A stretch of DNA of 64,000 bases from Euglena gracilis (lineage: Eukaryota). A program made the position numbers and the translations under genes. The stretch spans positions 19,144,642-19,208,641 of the forward strand of contig CP154954.1 in assembly GCA_039621445.1 (NCBI GenBank), read 5' to 3'. Below, in pieces: positions 610 through 63,737 of this stretch. The notes under the pieces were generated by a model that made no database searches, was not told the DNA's origin, and saw only the letters and a list, made by a program, of their open reading frames with translations. Each line of letters starts with the position of its first letter. Positions within the stretch are counted from its first letter, which is position 1.

Positions 610-3600
610 GCGATCATATAACCGTTCGGCTGACGGAAAAAGAGCACCAGGCGGTCCTCAGCAGGCACCTCCAGCCACGCTAACCCCCCCCCCCAAATAA
701 TACCCGCCCCCCAGATAATACCCCCCCCCTCGGGGTCCGACTTCGGCAACCGAATTAATACCCCCACTCTACTTTCGGGCCGGCGACCCAGATTTTGGAA
801 AATGTAGGCAAAAATCACAATCTCTGACAACAAATTACGAAAAATATCGATTTTTCTGGATCATCTGGCCTCCAAAAATGCTAAATTGAATGAGAAAATA
901 CAAAAAAAAAGACCCCAAAGGGGGGTTTTGAGTGCAACTTTGGGTCCCACAGGACTTCCAAAAATTTCGAAGATTTGGGGTGCTATCACCCCCCAAATAA
1001 TACCCCCCCCCCCTCGGGCCGGGACTTCGGGCGAAAAAATAAATATCCCGGGGGTATTATTTAGGGGGGTTTGGGGGGTTTTACCTGAGGGATAGCATTT
1101 TCGGTTGTAAAGGGTGTGCATTGGACGGTGATCACCAACGCCTCGGCTTGCAAATAATTCTCGTTGCCAACCCCGGAGGGGGGGTGGAGGGGGTTCCTTG
1201 TGCTATGGGGTGCCTGCCCATAGCAGGGGTCGGTTTCGGCCCCTCGTGCCTGCCGACAAAGCCAATTTTTACTTGAAAAGGGCCGTTTTTGGGCCCCGGT
1301 GGCTTCGGCGCCGGGAGGTGTGTGCTATTTATAGCACACCTACCCACCCAAAACCTGACCCGAAAATGCCCGACCCCGCTGCCTGCCGATAACACCCGCC
1401 CTGGGGCTCTGGGGGTGGAACCTTCCTTGAGGAGGGTCAGTGATCTCACCAGGGAGAGAGACATATACTGGGGAGAGGGGAGTTGACATTTTTCCCATTC
1501 ACACAAACGGACATTAAGGGTCTGGCCCAGGGTTCGATATAACGGCAGGTGGGGGGTGGTCCAGATCCCCCCATTCGAGTGCAGGGTTCGATATAAAGAG
1601 GGCGCACGGGGTTTAGGTGGAGGGTGCCCCCCCCCCCCCTCCTGGACCAGGGATCCGGACCCCCCCCCCCCCTACTTGCCAGGGGGGTCCGGACCGATGG
1701 GGGTACCTGGAACTGCCCCAAAAGGTCCTTTTTCCTTCCGGCAGTTTGCGCCGGATTTTTTTTGCATTTCTGACAAATGTTTGCTCCAAAAGTCCGAAAA
1801 TGGCACTTTTGGCCGTTTAGGGGTGTCAAAAATTTTGGCCTGAGACTTTCTGGGCCGAAAATTATCACCCGTGTCCCCCCTGGGCACGGGGGAATGGCGG
1901 GGCCTCCCGGGGAGGCCTGGCCCTTGGGGAACCCGTCCAGCTGGCCCCGCAGCTCGTCGCTGATGGTCGCCGCTGAAATGGAGATGGCCAGCTGGACCGC
2001 CGACCCGTTCTGGGCCAGGAGTTGGGTCCCAGGGGCACCCTCCGCCCGTCACCGGTGGGGCGGGGTAGGCCGTCACCTTGAATGAGCGGCCATGGCACAC
2101 AGAAATGAAAATCCGACACTGGGGATTTGGTTCGAGGACCATATGTGACCCCCAGAAGCCTGGGCAGCATCAGTGGGGTGTAATCCTGTTGCCTCTGAGA
2201 AAAATTTTGCTCCTCTTCATGCAATGCGTGGATGAGTGTTTTCCCCAGCCGCTCACACTTCTATCACTCCCCAGGGTGGAACCACCACCTTTGGTGAAGA
2301 AAAACGACCGAGGCTTCAGGGGTTATTCAGTGGAAAGACTTCCAAAATCTTCCAAGTTGTTCTGGTTCATGGGTGAAATGCCGTTTTATTGTTATCATGC
2401 CAGAACTTCGGCCAATGTTTTTTTTTGGGAAAATCACCAAATTTCGCACAAAAAAAAGTAGATGTATAATGAATACAGCACGAAGACACACACAGAGCAA
2501 CATAGAAACACATTCCTGCAAGATTTGGCTGAAAGAGAGGCCCTGTTCTGTGTCGAATAACTATCTCCACCTGCCCTGTGAAGCGGTTGAATGACAGCGT
2601 TGGCAGCCAGCCATTCACCCAGACGGTCAGTTTGTGAGAGGGCTTGCACACGTAACGCCAATGTGCTGCTGCATTAATGTGGAAACAAATGCTTGTGCAG
2701 GTCTTCCACTACAGGGGGATGCTCACACCGCAGTGCCGGCACTCTGTGGCACACACTACACGTGCACTGTGTGGCACTGTGCATGGCACTGCGCGGCACT
2801 AGATGAATGATATGGCACCCCAATAAACCACTCAGCTCTTCTTTTTTTTTTTAATAATGCAATACCATGATACCAGAAATCAATTGGCTTTATATTAAAA
2901 AGAATATTTATTAATAAAATATTTGACATGGTCTGATACGACGCAGTGCCACACAATGTCGTCACTGCGGGCCAGGCATCCCCCTGGTGGAACAGACAGT
3001 TATTCTTTTTTCTTCGGATGGACCTCTGATATTCCAAATGAAATGGGCTTGATCTGAATGATGAAATTTGGGACTTGATCAAGATTAGCTCAAGAGAGAG
3101 ACTTGACCCTTGCAACTGGAAAAGCCAGTGGAAAATGCCTGGAGAAGATTTCCCATGCCCGAGTCTGGGGTTGAACCCTGCTTTTGTAATCAACAGGCCA
3201 TTGCTTGAGGACCTCGAGGGGCGTCCACTGGCTAGCTATTTTTGTTAGACACTGGAATAAAGGGACTAGCCAGACCCCGGTGGGGGTGGGAGGGGGTGAC
3301 TGATTTTTTTCCCCTCTGGCGCTGCGCGCCGAGGTCGAAATGAGGTTTTTAATGCATTTTTGGCTGGTCTTGTTCAAAAAAGTCCCAAAATACCCCAAAA
3401 TGGGCATTTTTAGCCAATTTTGGGTTTAGAAAAAAAGTTTTGGTACTTCTCTTCGCTTCGTGCCAGTCACTGTAAATATTTTTTCCACTAGCTAGGTCAG
3501 GTAACAGACCCCCAGGGGGGTGTGCTATTTCTGTGACTTCCGCTGGTCAAAGATTAGGCCAGCTGCAGTCCAGCCCCCAGGGGGGGGGTATTGCGAACCC

Positions 3601-62800: not shown

Positions 62801-63737
62801 GGGGGCATTGACTCCTTTACAAACTAACCCAAAACGCACCTACCTGCTTTCAGAAAATGCAAGCAGGTAGATGCATGCACACATACATACAACACATACA
62901 TACACACACACACATACATACATACATACATACGTACATGCATACATACATACATACACACACACATACATACATACATACATACATACATACATACATA
63001 CATACATACATACATACATACATACATACATACATACATACATACATACATACATACATACATACAGACAGACAGACAGACAGACAGACATACGTACGTA
63101 CGCACATACATACAAAAACCAAAAACAAAAAAATACTTCTCTGAGACATGCAAATGCAAAAAAAGAGATGCAATACACAATATTTCTCAGCAATTGTTGA
63201 AACAACTGTGTGCAAAGAGTTCGCGTCTGACTGGGGGTGATAGGACAGGGAGGCTGGCGCAAGGTACATCTAAACACGCCAGTGTTCTTTTCAAGACAGG
63301 GGGGGGGGCTCCTACGCACCCAGGGGGTACCCCTCCCCCCTCCTGGTTTGCACAAACAACAACAATGGAAAAAATCAGGATTTATAAGAGGTTACGGAGG
63401 AGCACCTTCCCCAGAAGAGCAGCGGTCCGGCAGACCCACCCATCCCCTCCTTCCCCTTGGGGCCCAACCTTAAAACTCCCTGATACATGCATGTGTTTGT
63501 GCGACAGACACTGTTGATTACGCAAATTTTGACAAGACATCTTGCAACAGGGACTAGATTTTCTCCCAAGCCCAAGTAAGTCAGCCCATGCTCCTCCCGG
63601 CAGGCTCTGTTGCATTCATGGTACAGCCATGACTCCAGGCTGTACAGCCACAACAGCGCCTTCGTGATCTGGTTGGGGTCCTCTTTGGCTGCCACACAGA
63701 GCGGGCGAACGTCCCGAACAGAGCGCAGGACCATTCC
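56825..63737 (-). CDS. Gene A (5'-partial, spliced): R-S-ExE class NAD(+):protein ADP-ribosyltransferase domain; paralogue of gene B
   Basis: Exons in transcription order: ~63737-63588, 62806-62733, 62306-62291, 61689-61589, 60029-59969, 58177-58074, 56927-56825 (TGA). Spliced product: ..[188 protein letters not shown] motifs LYR, FTSTS and ExE occur in order. Every junction keeps frame. Exon lengths match gene B (74, 16, 101, 61+104=165, 103 nt). Confidence 0.9.
56928..58073 (-). other. Nonconventional intron, last intron of gene A
   Basis: CC|ACC-CAGGC ... GCCTG-TTGCC|G; joins LLP|CNICF; same position as 18237-18629 in gene B. Confidence 0.9.
57115..57592. repeat. (CA)n then (TA)-rich microsatellite
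   Basis: Direct reading. Confidence 0.95.
58277..59394. mobile_element. TIR element with GAGGAGGCTC-TA-GAGCCTCCTC palindromes and an internal satellite
   Basis: Ends CGGTAGGAGGAGGC / GCCTCCTCCTACGG; palindrome clusters at 58280-58405 and 59200-59392. Confidence 0.7.
58665..59088. repeat. ~70-bp minisatellite, 6 copies
   Basis: Unit TGTGTGCATGTTCACCCTAACCCTATCCCTTCAATTAACAACATAACTC.. starting ~58667, 58737, 58808, 58873, 58943 and 59014. Confidence 0.85.
60228..60560. repeat. Degenerate array of GGTGAACAC + AAATTTTTTTT units
   Basis: About 10 GTGAACAC-like motifs; an inverted copy (GTGTTCAC) at 60220. Confidence 0.65.
62875..63114. repeat. (TACA)n/(GACA)n microsatellite
   Basis: Direct reading. 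Confidence 0.95.

What the first reader, a model, noticed from the sequence alone, without database searches (positions are those of the whole stretch)
610..63737. All resolvable introns of three genes are non-GT-AG, stem-closed (euglenid nonconventional) introns
Seen: 33 in-frame junctions. Most have C[A/G/T]G at intron +4..+6 pairing with its complement 5-6 nt before the 3' end, extended into 4-15-bp stems (e.g. CAGGCACCG/CGGTGCCTG at 11293-12026; CAGAAGGTTG/CAATCTTCTG at 48138-49173). None has GT and AG at both ends. Known: this is the euglenid nonconventional intron signature, whose splicing machinery is not well defined. Inference: the source is a Euglena-like organism and standard gene finders would miss these genes.
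Basis: partly seen in the sequence, partly recalled or inferred. Interest (0 to 1): 0.8.

Follow-up and report, generated by a model that had tools for sequence, protein, structure and literature searches.

The report
Euglena genes full of nonconventional introns
This stretch of Euglena gracilis nuclear DNA carries three genes in which none of the 46 resolvable introns has GT-AG ends and most close with a base-paired stem, which is a clean example of a well-documented euglenid oddity and not a new kind of element.

Summary

**Gene models.** Two Euglena gracilis transcript-derived proteins map colinearly to the minus strand.
- EG_transcript_2083 (887 aa, MIB_HERC2 plus ADP-ribosyltransferase) maps at 52862..18137, with 33 coding exons, 32 introns and 885 of 887 residues identical.
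- EG_transcript_2311 (a cyclase) maps with residues 1-243 at 12457..597, giving 8 introns.
- A third gene at 63686..56828 is an untranscribed-or-unsampled paralog. Its 6 introns are placed by homology only.

**Intron ends.**
- 0 of 46 introns allow GT-AG, and 1 of 46 allows GC-AG.
- 19 of the 40 transcript-defined introns fit the genetically defined code N3-CDG/CH'G-N5-6|R. Random relocation gives 0.11 per 40.
- 40 of 46 have a helix of at least 3 bp in that register.
- Cognate end duplexes have a median of -18.8 kcal/mol, against -11.9 for non-cognate pairs and -6.0 for random places.

- One "gene" is a single 34.7-kb gene.
- The count is 46 introns, not 33.
- "Most" with the CDG core is really about half.
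- The cis code was published in 2025.

**Not obtained.** Direct RNA-read evidence could not be obtained.

**Mildly notable.** There are no clearly conventional introns here, against about 43% genome-wide.

The parts
18137..52862 (-). Gene 1. Coding region of the EG_transcript_2083-like gene (887 aa; two MIB_HERC2 domains, a weak SAM match and a C-terminal ADP-ribosyltransferase-like domain). It has 33 coding exons of 12-165 nt, 32 introns and a span of 34,726 nt.
   Evidence: tblastn and exact spliced mapping. Exon sizes sum to 2661 nt = 887 codons, followed by a stop. Pfam.
597..12457 (-). Gene 3. The 5' part (residues 1-243) of the EG_transcript_2311-like adenylate/guanylate cyclase gene. 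It has 9 exons and 8 complete introns. A ninth donor lies at about 610 and the rest of the gene runs off the window start.
56828..63686 (-). Gene C. The 3' part of a paralog of gene 1 (ADP-ribosyltransferase-like domain, closest to EG_transcript_755). It has 7 exons and 6 introns placed by homology only. No exact transcript was found.
52713..52803 (-). Gene 1 intron 1 (91 nt). Hybrid intron: it has a GC-AG option and also a CGG/CCG core with a 14-bp stem.
51312..52635 (-). Gene 1 intron 2. GGCCAGG...CCTGCCCCC|g, fits the strict code, 5-bp stem.
50611..51178 (-). Gene 1 intron 3. No helix in the +4 register, but the end duplex is -25.5 kcal/mol (AGGCCTTGGC/GCCAAGGCCT).
50592..50609 (-). Micro-exon of 18 nt encoding DLSGCG.
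49752..50591 (-). Gene 1 intron 4. Fits the strict code, CAG/CTG, 4 bp.
49293..49658 (-). Gene 1 intron 5 (363 nt, five possible junction positions). Bulged end stem, -21.9 kcal/mol, no CDG core.
48138..49173 (-). Fits the strict code, 12-bp stem CAGAAGGTTGGC/GTCAATCTTCTG.
46431..48080 (-). Gene 1 intron 7. CAA/TTG core, 7 bp in register. It contains a duplicated copy of exon 7.
46418..46430 (-). Micro-exon (12-13 nt) encoding ILPV.
45600..46417 (-). Gene 1 intron 8. Fits the strict code, 12-bp stem.
44801..45524 (-). Gene 1 intron 9. Fits the strict code, 8 bp.
44054..44723 (-). Gene 1 intron 10. CGC/GCG core, 7 bp in register. It has a GT-start option only.
43464..43905 (-). Gene 1 intron 11. 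TGA/TCA core, 10 bp in register. It has an AG-end option only.
42681..43430 (-). Gene 1 intron 12. Fits the strict code, 6 bp.
41236..42551 (-). Gene 1 intron 13. Fits the strict code, 7 bp.
40656..41158 (-). Gene 1 intron 14. Bulged stem CAAAGCCTCAGC/GCTGAGGCTTG, -28.8 kcal/mol, off register.
38176..40607 (-). Gene 1 intron 15. CTG/CGG core with a U-G wobble, 5 bp.
37777..38128 (-). Gene 1 intron 16 (351 nt). 6-nt direct repeat at the junctions, ATC/GGT core, 5 bp.
36415..37741 (-). Gene 1 intron 17. CAC/GTG core, 8 bp.
35832..36268 (-). Gene 1 intron 18. The weakest end pairing of all introns (-9.7 kcal/mol).
34851..35796 (-). Gene 1 intron 19. Fits the strict code with a 6-nt 3' spacer, 10 bp.
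34096..34721 (-). Gene 1 intron 20. Fits the strict code, 5 bp.
32214..33997 (-). Gene 1 intron 21. Stem GTGTCAGC/GCTGACAC off register, -18.0 kcal/mol.
29208..32139 (-). Gene 1 intron 22 (2932 nt). Fits the strict code, 6 bp.
27427..29141 (-). Gene 1 intron 23. AGG/CCT core, 6 bp.
26999..27344 (-). Gene 1 intron 24. Fits the strict code, 4 bp.
25216..26896 (-). Gene 1 intron 25. End stem GGGAGGC/GCCTCC, -22.3 kcal/mol.
24710..25135 (-). Gene 1 intron 26. Fits the strict code, CGG/CCG, 4 bp.
23216..24640 (-). Gene 1 intron 27. CCA/TGG core (CCCAGGCA/TGCCTGG), 7 bp.
21614..23122 (-). Gene 1 intron 28. CAT/ATG core. Its ends are conserved with gene C intron 1.
20534..21557 (-). Gene 1 intron 29. 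CAC/GTG core.
20518..20533 (-). Micro-exon (15-16 nt) encoding MPRCN.
19617..20517 (-). Gene 1 intron 30. ATG/CAT core, 14-bp stem, GT start only.
18795..19515 (-). Fits the strict code, 8-bp stem CAGGGGGG/CCCCCCTG.
18237..18629 (-). Fits the strict code, 4 bp.
12123..12420 (-). Gene 3 intron 1 (293 nt, six possible junction positions). Weak end pairing, -10.1 kcal/mol.
11293..12026 (-). Fits the strict code with a 6-nt spacer, 9-bp stem.
10294..11251 (-). Gene 3 intron 3. CAT/ATG core, 6 bp.
5685..10199 (-). Fits the strict code, 9 bp.
3763..5553 (-). Gene 3 intron 5. No helix in register. End duplex -17.2 kcal/mol.
2634..3684 (-). Gene 3 intron 6. AGG/CCT core, 3 bp.
2024..2548 (-). Gene 3 intron 7. 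Only one junction position is possible. Fits the strict code with a 6-nt spacer, 5 bp.
657..1922 (-). Gene 3 intron 8. Fits the strict code, 5 bp.
62801..63593 (-). Gene C intron 1, placed by homology. CAT/ATG core.
62307..62744 (-). Gene C intron 2, placed by homology. CAC/GTG core, 8 bp.
61689..62289 (-). Gene C intron 3, placed by homology. No helix in register at the best-homology junction.
60030..61588 (-). Gene C intron 4. Fits the strict code, 6 bp.
58178..59976 (-). Gene C intron 5, which is absent from gene 1. Its junction is uncertain: 59976..58186 by best homology, or 59968..58178 if placed by the code (7-bp stem).
56928..58073 (-). Gene C intron 6. Fits the strict code, 5 bp, and is flanked by a 9-nt direct repeat.

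Best explanation
The window is Euglena gracilis nuclear DNA with three minus-strand genes. Every resolvable intron in them is a euglenid nonconventional intron. The single exception is a hybrid intron that has both a GC-AG option and the nonconventional code.

**Shown here.**
- The introns are absent from the transcript-derived proteins.
- They lack GT-AG borders.
- Their two ends are complementary in a fixed register. Intron position +4 (usually C of CAG) pairs with the nucleotide 6-7 nt before the 3' end (usually G of CTG), and the helix continues inward for 3-14 bp.
- The downstream exon starts with a purine.

**Inferred from the literature.**
- This terminal helix brings the two splice sites together.
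- It is read by a still unidentified machinery that is probably not the spliceosome.
- The spacers of 3 nt on the 5' side and 5-6 nt on the 3' side fix the cut sites.
- The intron may leave as a circle.
For: **Transcript colinearity.**
- P0001 maps with 885 of 887 residues identical over 33 exons. The exon sizes sum to exactly 887 codons, followed by a stop.
- P0003 residues 1-243 map with one mismatch.

**Canonical ends.** 0 of 46 introns have GT-AG at any protein-compatible junction position, and 1 of 46 has GC-AG.

**Strict published code.** It is met in 19 of 40 introns, against 0.11 per 40 under random relocation (maximum 3 in 2000 trials).

**In-register helices.**
- At least 3 bp in 40 of 46, against a random mean of 13.9 (maximum 22).
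- At least 4 bp in 32 of 46, against 6.75.
- At least 6 bp in 21 of 46, against 1.5.

**End-duplex energy.**
- The median is -18.8 kcal/mol for cognate ends, -11.9 for non-cognate pairs (Mann-Whitney p = 1.6e-15) and -6.0 for random places (p = 3.5e-25).
- 35 of 40 introns lie below the random 5th percentile.

**Consensus.**
- The consensus GGCCAGG / CCTGCCCCC|R matches the CCAGG at +3..+7 and CCTG at -9..-6 reported for E. gracilis (PMC11170887, section read).
- It also matches the code N3CDG/CH'GN5-6|R (PMC12501133, abstract and sections read).
- The downstream exon starts with a purine in 32 of 32 registered introns.

**Paralog comparison.** The paralogous introns of gene 1 and gene C keep similar ends, for example 17 of 20 and 15 of 20 nt. 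Their interiors are at the level of unrelated sequence, about 45-50% identical columns.
Against: - There is no nucleotide-level cDNA or read evidence, because read laying could not be run on this window. Junctions rest on protein colinearity, so cut sites are ambiguous by 1-10 nt in most introns.
- Only about half of the introns fit the published code: 19 of 40, plus 2 of 6 in gene C.
- 6 of 46 have no helix of at least 3 bp in the canonical register.
- 5 of 40 end duplexes are not below the random 5th percentile. The weakest are gene 1 intron 18 (-9.7) and gene 3 intron 1 (-10.1).
- The transcripts differ from the window by 2 residues in P0001 and 1 residue in P0003. They may therefore come from another allele, strain or near-identical copy.
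- Gene C has no transcript support.
- The mechanism itself (spliceosome independence, circular product) is taken from papers and is not tested here.
Confidence: 0.93

Rival explanations
1. The introns are ordinary spliceosomal introns that use nearby GT-AG (or GC-AG or AT-AC) sites, and the non-canonical ends are an artefact of where the junctions were drawn.
For: Junction positions can slide in 31 of 46 introns at the nucleotide level. 6 of 46 have a GT-start option and 4 of 46 have an AG-end option. Gene 1 intron 1 can be drawn as GC-AG.
Against: I enumerated every donor/acceptor position that reproduces the transcript-derived protein. None gives GT-AG or AT-AC, and only one gives GC-AG. The end complementarity is far above the controls.
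Confidence: 0.02
2. A subset are 'intermediate' or hybrid introns that the spliceosome removes, possibly helped by the stem. Candidates are gene 1 intron 1 with GC-AG and the six introns that start with GT.
For: Gene 1 intron 1 has both GC-AG ends and the CGG/CCG code. GT-start options occur in gene 1 introns 7, 10, 12, 29 and 30 and in gene C intron 6. Intermediate introns are discussed in PMC3935182 (passages read), and hybrid introns make up 0.8% of E. agilis introns (PMC12501133).
Against: A GT at one of 2-11 possible positions is expected fairly often by chance. None of these introns pairs the GT with an AG. PMC12501133 argues that hybrids pair like nonconventional introns and are probably handled by the noncanonical machinery. 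U1 complementarity was not tested here.
Confidence: 0.1
3. This locus is a silent or near-identical second copy, and the matching transcripts come from another copy. On this reading the junctions are homology-inferred and have not been demonstrated for this DNA.
For: P0001 differs from the window at 2 residues and P0003 at 1 residue. The window itself holds a paralog (gene C) and an internal exon duplication, so the family is duplicated.
Against: 99.8% protein identity over 33 exons, with all reading frames, micro-exons and the stop codon intact, is what allelic or strain variation would give. Even if this rival were true, the intron type would be the same.
Confidence: 0.1

Closest known systems
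Nonconventional introns of Euglena gracilis and E. agilis (Milanowski et al. 2014, PMC3935182; Gao et al. 2024, PMC11170887; Nomura et al. 2025, PMC12501133)
   Same: No GT/C-AG borders. CAG at +4..+6 pairs with CTG 5-6 nt before the 3' end. The helix extends inward. The next exon starts with a purine. Short direct repeats make junctions slidable. The consensus GGCCAGG/CCTGCCCCC matches.
   Different: Nothing differs in kind. Here 21 of 46 introns fit the full code, against 61.2% of nonconventional introns in E. agilis. At most one intron (the GC-AG/nonconventional hybrid, gene 1 intron 1) could count as conventional, against 43% conventional (GT-AG plus GC-AG) of 28,337 E. gracilis introns.
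Intermediate or hybrid euglenid introns (Canaday 2001 as cited in PMC3935182; 'both' class in PMC12501133)
   Same: Gene 1 intron 1 has GC-AG ends, a nonconventional core and a 14-bp stem.
   Different: This applies to only 1 of 46 introns. The six GT-start introns have no AG end.
MITE-like or transposon-derived introns (origin hypothesis discussed in PMC12501133; review PMC11282704, seen only in the search listing)
   Same: Terminal inverted repeats. Flanking short direct repeats of up to 9 nt (gene C intron 6). One paralog-specific intron (gene C intron 5).
   Different: Intron ends are not a shared sequence family. The repeats shared between introns are internal and occur in either orientation. 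No transposase or recent-copy evidence was found.
Noncanonical introns of diplonemids (PMC12621601, seen only in the search listing and the start of its abstract)
   Same: A euglenozoan lineage with abundant non-GT-AG introns.
   Different: Not compared here.

Membership tests
Euglenid nonconventional introns | Borders lack the GT/C-AG consensus | tested here: met
   0 of 46 introns have GT-AG and 1 of 46 has a GC-AG option, counting all protein-compatible junction positions.
Euglenid nonconventional introns | The intron ends can base-pair and so bring the splice sites together | tested here: met
   The cognate duplex median is -18.8 kcal/mol, against -11.9 for non-cognate pairs and -6.0 for random places. 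35 of 40 lie below the random 5th percentile and 5 of 40 do not.
Euglenid nonconventional introns | CA at +4,+5 pairs with TG at -7,-6 (PMC3935182) | tested here: met
   32 of 46 introns have C at +4 paired in register, and 27 of those 32 have A at +5. 14 of 46 lack C at +4 in register.
Euglenid nonconventional introns | Full code 5'-N3CDG-/-CH'GN5-6|R (PMC12501133) | tested here: inconclusive
   The code is met by 19 of 40 transcript-defined introns and by 2 of 6 gene C introns. The paper itself finds it in only 61.2% of nonconventional introns, so failing it does not exclude membership.
Euglenid nonconventional introns | A purine starts the downstream exon | tested here: met
   32 of 32 introns registered with C at +4.
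Euglenid nonconventional introns | The intron is removed from mature mRNA in vivo | tested here: met
   40 introns are absent from transcript-derived proteins that are colinear with the window. This is protein-level evidence only. The 6 gene C introns are not supported.
Euglenid nonconventional introns | Removal is independent of the spliceosome, or yields a circular intron RNA | not testable with these tools
   Known only from the literature (Guminska 2021, as cited in PMC12501133).
Conventional U2-type introns | GT/GC at the 5' end and AG at the 3' end of the same intron | tested here: not met
   Only gene 1 intron 1 (GC-AG) qualifies; 45 of 46 fail.
U12-type introns | AT-AC, or GT-AG with the U12 consensus | tested here: not met
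   No AT-AC option in the 40 introns screened by script, and none among the gene C options printed.

The most novel reading that the evidence does not exclude
This reading makes two linked claims.

**Claim 1: intron type is strongly clustered by gene or locus in E. gracilis.** 46 of 46 introns here lack GT-AG ends (45 of 46 are nonconventional and 1 is a GC-AG/nonconventional hybrid), against about 57% genome-wide.

**Claim 2: the working rule is broader than the published CDG/CH'G code.**
- Roughly half of the introns that are evidently spliced here lack that core.
- They still keep a helix in the same +4/-6 register. Examples are ATG/CAT with 14 bp, TGA/TCA with 10 bp and CAC/GTG with 8 bp.
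- This suggests that any sufficiently long helix in register is enough.
Probability: 0.3. Interest if true: 0.4.

Novelty: already known. Interest (0 to 1): 0.2.

Why it matters
As a discovery it matters little. Nonconventional introns are a described, genome-wide feature of Euglena, and their cis code was genetically defined in 2025.

The window does have some practical and follow-up value.

- **Worked example.** It shows a 34.7-kb, 33-exon gene with exons of 12-165 nt and no GT-AG intron (one hybrid has a GC-AG option). A GT-AG-based gene finder could not be expected to assemble such a gene.
- **Test cases for the code.** It supplies a set of naturally spliced introns that violate the published core motif but keep its register. 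These could be tested in the published knock-in assay.
- **Clustering of intron type.**
  - Under independence, the absence of any clearly conventional intron would be very unlikely. The probability is 1.7e-10 for 40 introns at 57% nonconventional, and 1.8e-6 at 71.8%.
  - Introns in one gene are not independent, and I could not examine the rest of the genome.

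Tried and rejected

- No whole genome is held for this window.
- Pfam on ten single long reading frames gave 0 families, because the exons are too short. Pfam on the full transcript proteins worked.
- An Rfam scan of the whole window at gathering thresholds gave 0 matches.

**RNA evidence.**
- The look-up of sequencing runs listed no RNA holder. It listed only small-share rows guessed to be RNA, plus non-indexed raw-read runs with the same species label.

**Gene C.** A search for an exact transcript found only the 76%-identical P0002 (after a too-short query). 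Expression of gene C is therefore open.

**Rejected reading.**
- I considered whether the intron ends form one transposon family.
- Inter-intron BLAST found 34 matching segments. All those listed are internal interspersed repeats. The one exception comes from the exon-7 duplication.

**Supplements.** The supplementary tables of the cited papers could not be opened. They may already list these very introns.

Full report
**What is in the window.**

To find the genes I compared the two ends of the window by translated search. This showed paralogous exons of an ADP-ribosyltransferase-like domain at about 23266-18620 and 63737-56828.

A database search with one such exon returned two Euglena gracilis transcript-derived proteins from EukProt: EG_transcript_2083 (P0001, 887 aa) and EG_transcript_755 (P0002, 1232 aa). 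A second search with an exon at 12015-12170 returned EG_transcript_2311 (P0003, 798 aa).

Pfam gives these domains:
- P0001: two MIB_HERC2 domains, with weak SAM and ADP-ribosyltransferase matches.
- P0002: MIB_HERC2 plus ART.
- P0003: an adenylate/guanylate cyclase domain.

**Gene models.**

*Gene 1.*
- P0001 maps colinearly on the minus strand from 52862 to 18137.
- Four short gaps in the first mapping turned out to be extra exons found inside the introns. They encode DLSGCG at 50609-50592, ILPV at 46429-46418, RMRKADEIQNAV at 37776-37741 and MPRCN at 20532-20518.
- With these added, the gene has 33 coding exons of 12-165 nt. They sum to exactly 2661 nt (887 codons), are followed by a stop, and are separated by 32 introns. 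The span is 34,726 nt.
- 885 of 887 residues are identical.
- The MIB_HERC2 part and the ADP-ribosyltransferase part are therefore one gene, not two.

*Gene 3.*
- P0003 residues 1-243 map from 12457 to 597, with 9 exons, 8 complete introns and one mismatch.
- A ninth exon end lies at about 610 and is followed by CCC-CAG. Its acceptor is off the window.

*Gene C.*
- The region 63686..56828 is a paralog with 7 exons and 6 introns. I could place these only by homology to P0002.
- A search for an exact transcript found none.
- Its reading frame ends in a stop at the homologous place.

The total is 46 introns, with a median length of 870 nt and a range of 91-4515 nt.

**Are any introns conventional?**

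For each junction I enumerated every donor/acceptor position that reproduces the protein. This is more permissive than cDNA would be.
- None of the 46 introns has GT-AG.
- One has a GC-AG option. This is gene 1 intron 1 (91 nt), and it also carries the nonconventional core and a 14-bp stem.
- None of the 40 script-screened introns has AT-AC.
- 6 of 46 have only a GT-start option, and 4 of 46 have only an AG-end option.

**Is the stem-closed signature real and above chance?**

*Strict code.*
- The genetically defined code is three free nucleotides, then C[AGT]G. Its complement lies 5-6 nt before the 3' end, and a purine starts the next exon.
- It is met by 19 of the 40 transcript-defined introns: 15 of 32 in gene 1 and 4 of 8 in gene 3.
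- Relocating the same intron lengths and the same numbers of slide options at random gives 0.11 hits per 40, with a maximum of 3 in 2000 trials.
- In gene C it is met by 2 of 6 at the best-homology junctions. A third fits only at a junction that is one mismatch worse.

*Relaxed test.* Keeping the register but dropping the requirement for a particular core gives these figures:

| Helix length in register | Observed (of 46) | Random mean | Random maximum |
|---|---|---|---|
| at least 3 bp | 40 | 13.9 | 22 |
| at least 4 bp | 32 | 6.75 | 15 |
| at least 6 bp | 21 | 1.5 | 6 |

*Core pairs.*
- CAG/CTG occurs 19 times.
- CAC/GTG and CAT/ATG occur 3 times each.
- CGG/CCG occurs twice.
- CAA/TTG, CGC/GCG, CTG/CGG, CCA/TGG, ATG/CAT, TGA/TCA and a few others occur once each.

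*End-duplex energy.*
- Duplex energies between the first and last 20 nt have a median of -18.8 kcal/mol for cognate ends.
- The median is -11.9 for the 1560 non-cognate combinations and -6.0 for random places.
- 35 of 40 introns lie below the random 5th percentile, and 5 of 40 do not.

*Consensus of the 32 introns registered with C at +4.*
- The consensus is G-G/C-C-C-A-G-G at the 5' end and C-C-T-G-C-C-C-C-C at the 3' end.
- The next exon starts with a purine in 32 of 32.
- The intron starts with a purine in 30 of 32.
- The intron ends with a pyrimidine in 28 of 32.

**Comparison with the literature.**
- Milanowski et al. (PMC3935182, passages read) define nonconventional introns by variable non-canonical borders and a secondary structure that joins the ends. 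Their best-conserved feature is CA at +4,+5 pairing with TG at -7,-6.
- Gao et al. (PMC11170887, sections read) report 28,337 E. gracilis introns.
  - Of these, 11,527 are GT-AG, 659 are GC-AG and 16,151 are nonconventional.
  - They give the consensus as CCAGG at +3..+7 and CCTG at -9..-6.
- Nomura et al. (PMC12501133, abstract and sections read) report three things.
  - 71.8% of E. agilis introns are nonconventional.
  - By knock-in mutagenesis in E. gracilis they define the code 5'-N3CDG-/-CH'GN5-6|R.
  - They find this code in 61.2% of nonconventional introns.

Everything measured here agrees with these descriptions. This is the known family, in the species where it was described.

**Mechanism.**
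- Shown here: the introns are absent from the mature message as judged from protein, their ends are complementary in a fixed register, and their borders are non-canonical.
- Inferred from the cited papers:
  - The terminal helix juxtaposes the splice sites.
  - The 3-nt and 5-6-nt spacers set the cut positions.
  - The trans-acting machinery is unknown and is thought to be distinct from the spliceosome.
  - At least some such introns leave as circles.

**What remains open.**
- I could not obtain read-level evidence.
- Cut sites are therefore ambiguous within short direct repeats. 31 of 46 introns are slidable at the nucleotide level.
- Splicing of this exact copy rests on 99.8% protein identity.

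**Secondary points.**
- The paralogous introns of gene 1 and gene C sit at the same positions and keep recognisably similar ends. The first pair shares 17 of 20 and 15 of 20 nt, while the interiors are at background similarity. This fits constraint on the ends.
- Gene C has one intron that gene 1 lacks.
- There is no clearly conventional intron among the 46; at most the GC-AG hybrid could count as one.
  - Under independence at published genome-wide rates this would be improbable (1.7e-10 to 1.8e-6 for 40 introns).
  - Introns within a gene are not independent, and I have no genome to test clustering.

**Verdict.** The interest lies mainly in the window being a clean example and a source of natural introns that break the published code but keep its register.

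Noticed in passing
window 47353-47653 versus 47950-48250 (minus strand): A segment of about 250-300 nt holding exon 7 of gene 1 and both its flanks is duplicated inside intron 7 (86% mean column identity). The exon copies differ only at two synonymous sites. In the second copy the acceptor core reads ATG instead of CTG, which under the published code should disable it. Which copy is used cannot be told from the protein.
   Followed up: partly
window 50592-50609, 46418-46430 and 20518-20533 (minus strand): Three coding micro-exons of 12-18 nt (DLSGCG, ILPV, MPRCN). The paralog has the equivalent MPRC micro-exon at 62305-62291.
   Followed up: yes
window 58178-59976: Gene C has an intron that splits the ADP-ribosyltransferase exon. 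Gene 1 has that exon uninterrupted (18794-18630). This is an intron gain or loss between paralogs.
   Followed up: partly
window 56928-58082: The last intron of gene C is flanked by a 9-nt direct repeat, which gives 11 protein-equivalent junction positions. It resembles a target-site duplication.
   Followed up: no
inside introns, e.g. about 7861-8251, about 23291-23651 and about 685-1070: Interspersed repeat families of about 250-400 nt (67-83% identical) recur inside different introns of genes 1 and 3, in both orientations. There were 34 inter-intron BLAST matches, all internal and not at intron ends.
   Followed up: partly
window 26016-26261, 26563-26659, 36647-37068, 57110-57549, 62881-63114 and 11897-12001: Long microsatellites, (CA)n, (ACAT)n, (AT)n and (TGCG/TG)n, lie within introns.
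   Followed up: no
window about 20110-20130, 20040-20060 and 19812-19835 (minus strand, intron 30 of gene 1): Recurrent palindromic C-run/G-run motifs (a run of C followed by a run of G), flanked by similar 'cagccagc' text. Probably part of a repeat element.
   Followed up: no
window 12458-12634 (minus strand): The reading frame of the first mapped exon of the cyclase gene stays open for about 59 codons upstream of the methionine that starts P0003, and those codons look hydrophobic. The transcript model may be 5'-truncated, or the gene may have further upstream exons.
   Followed up: no
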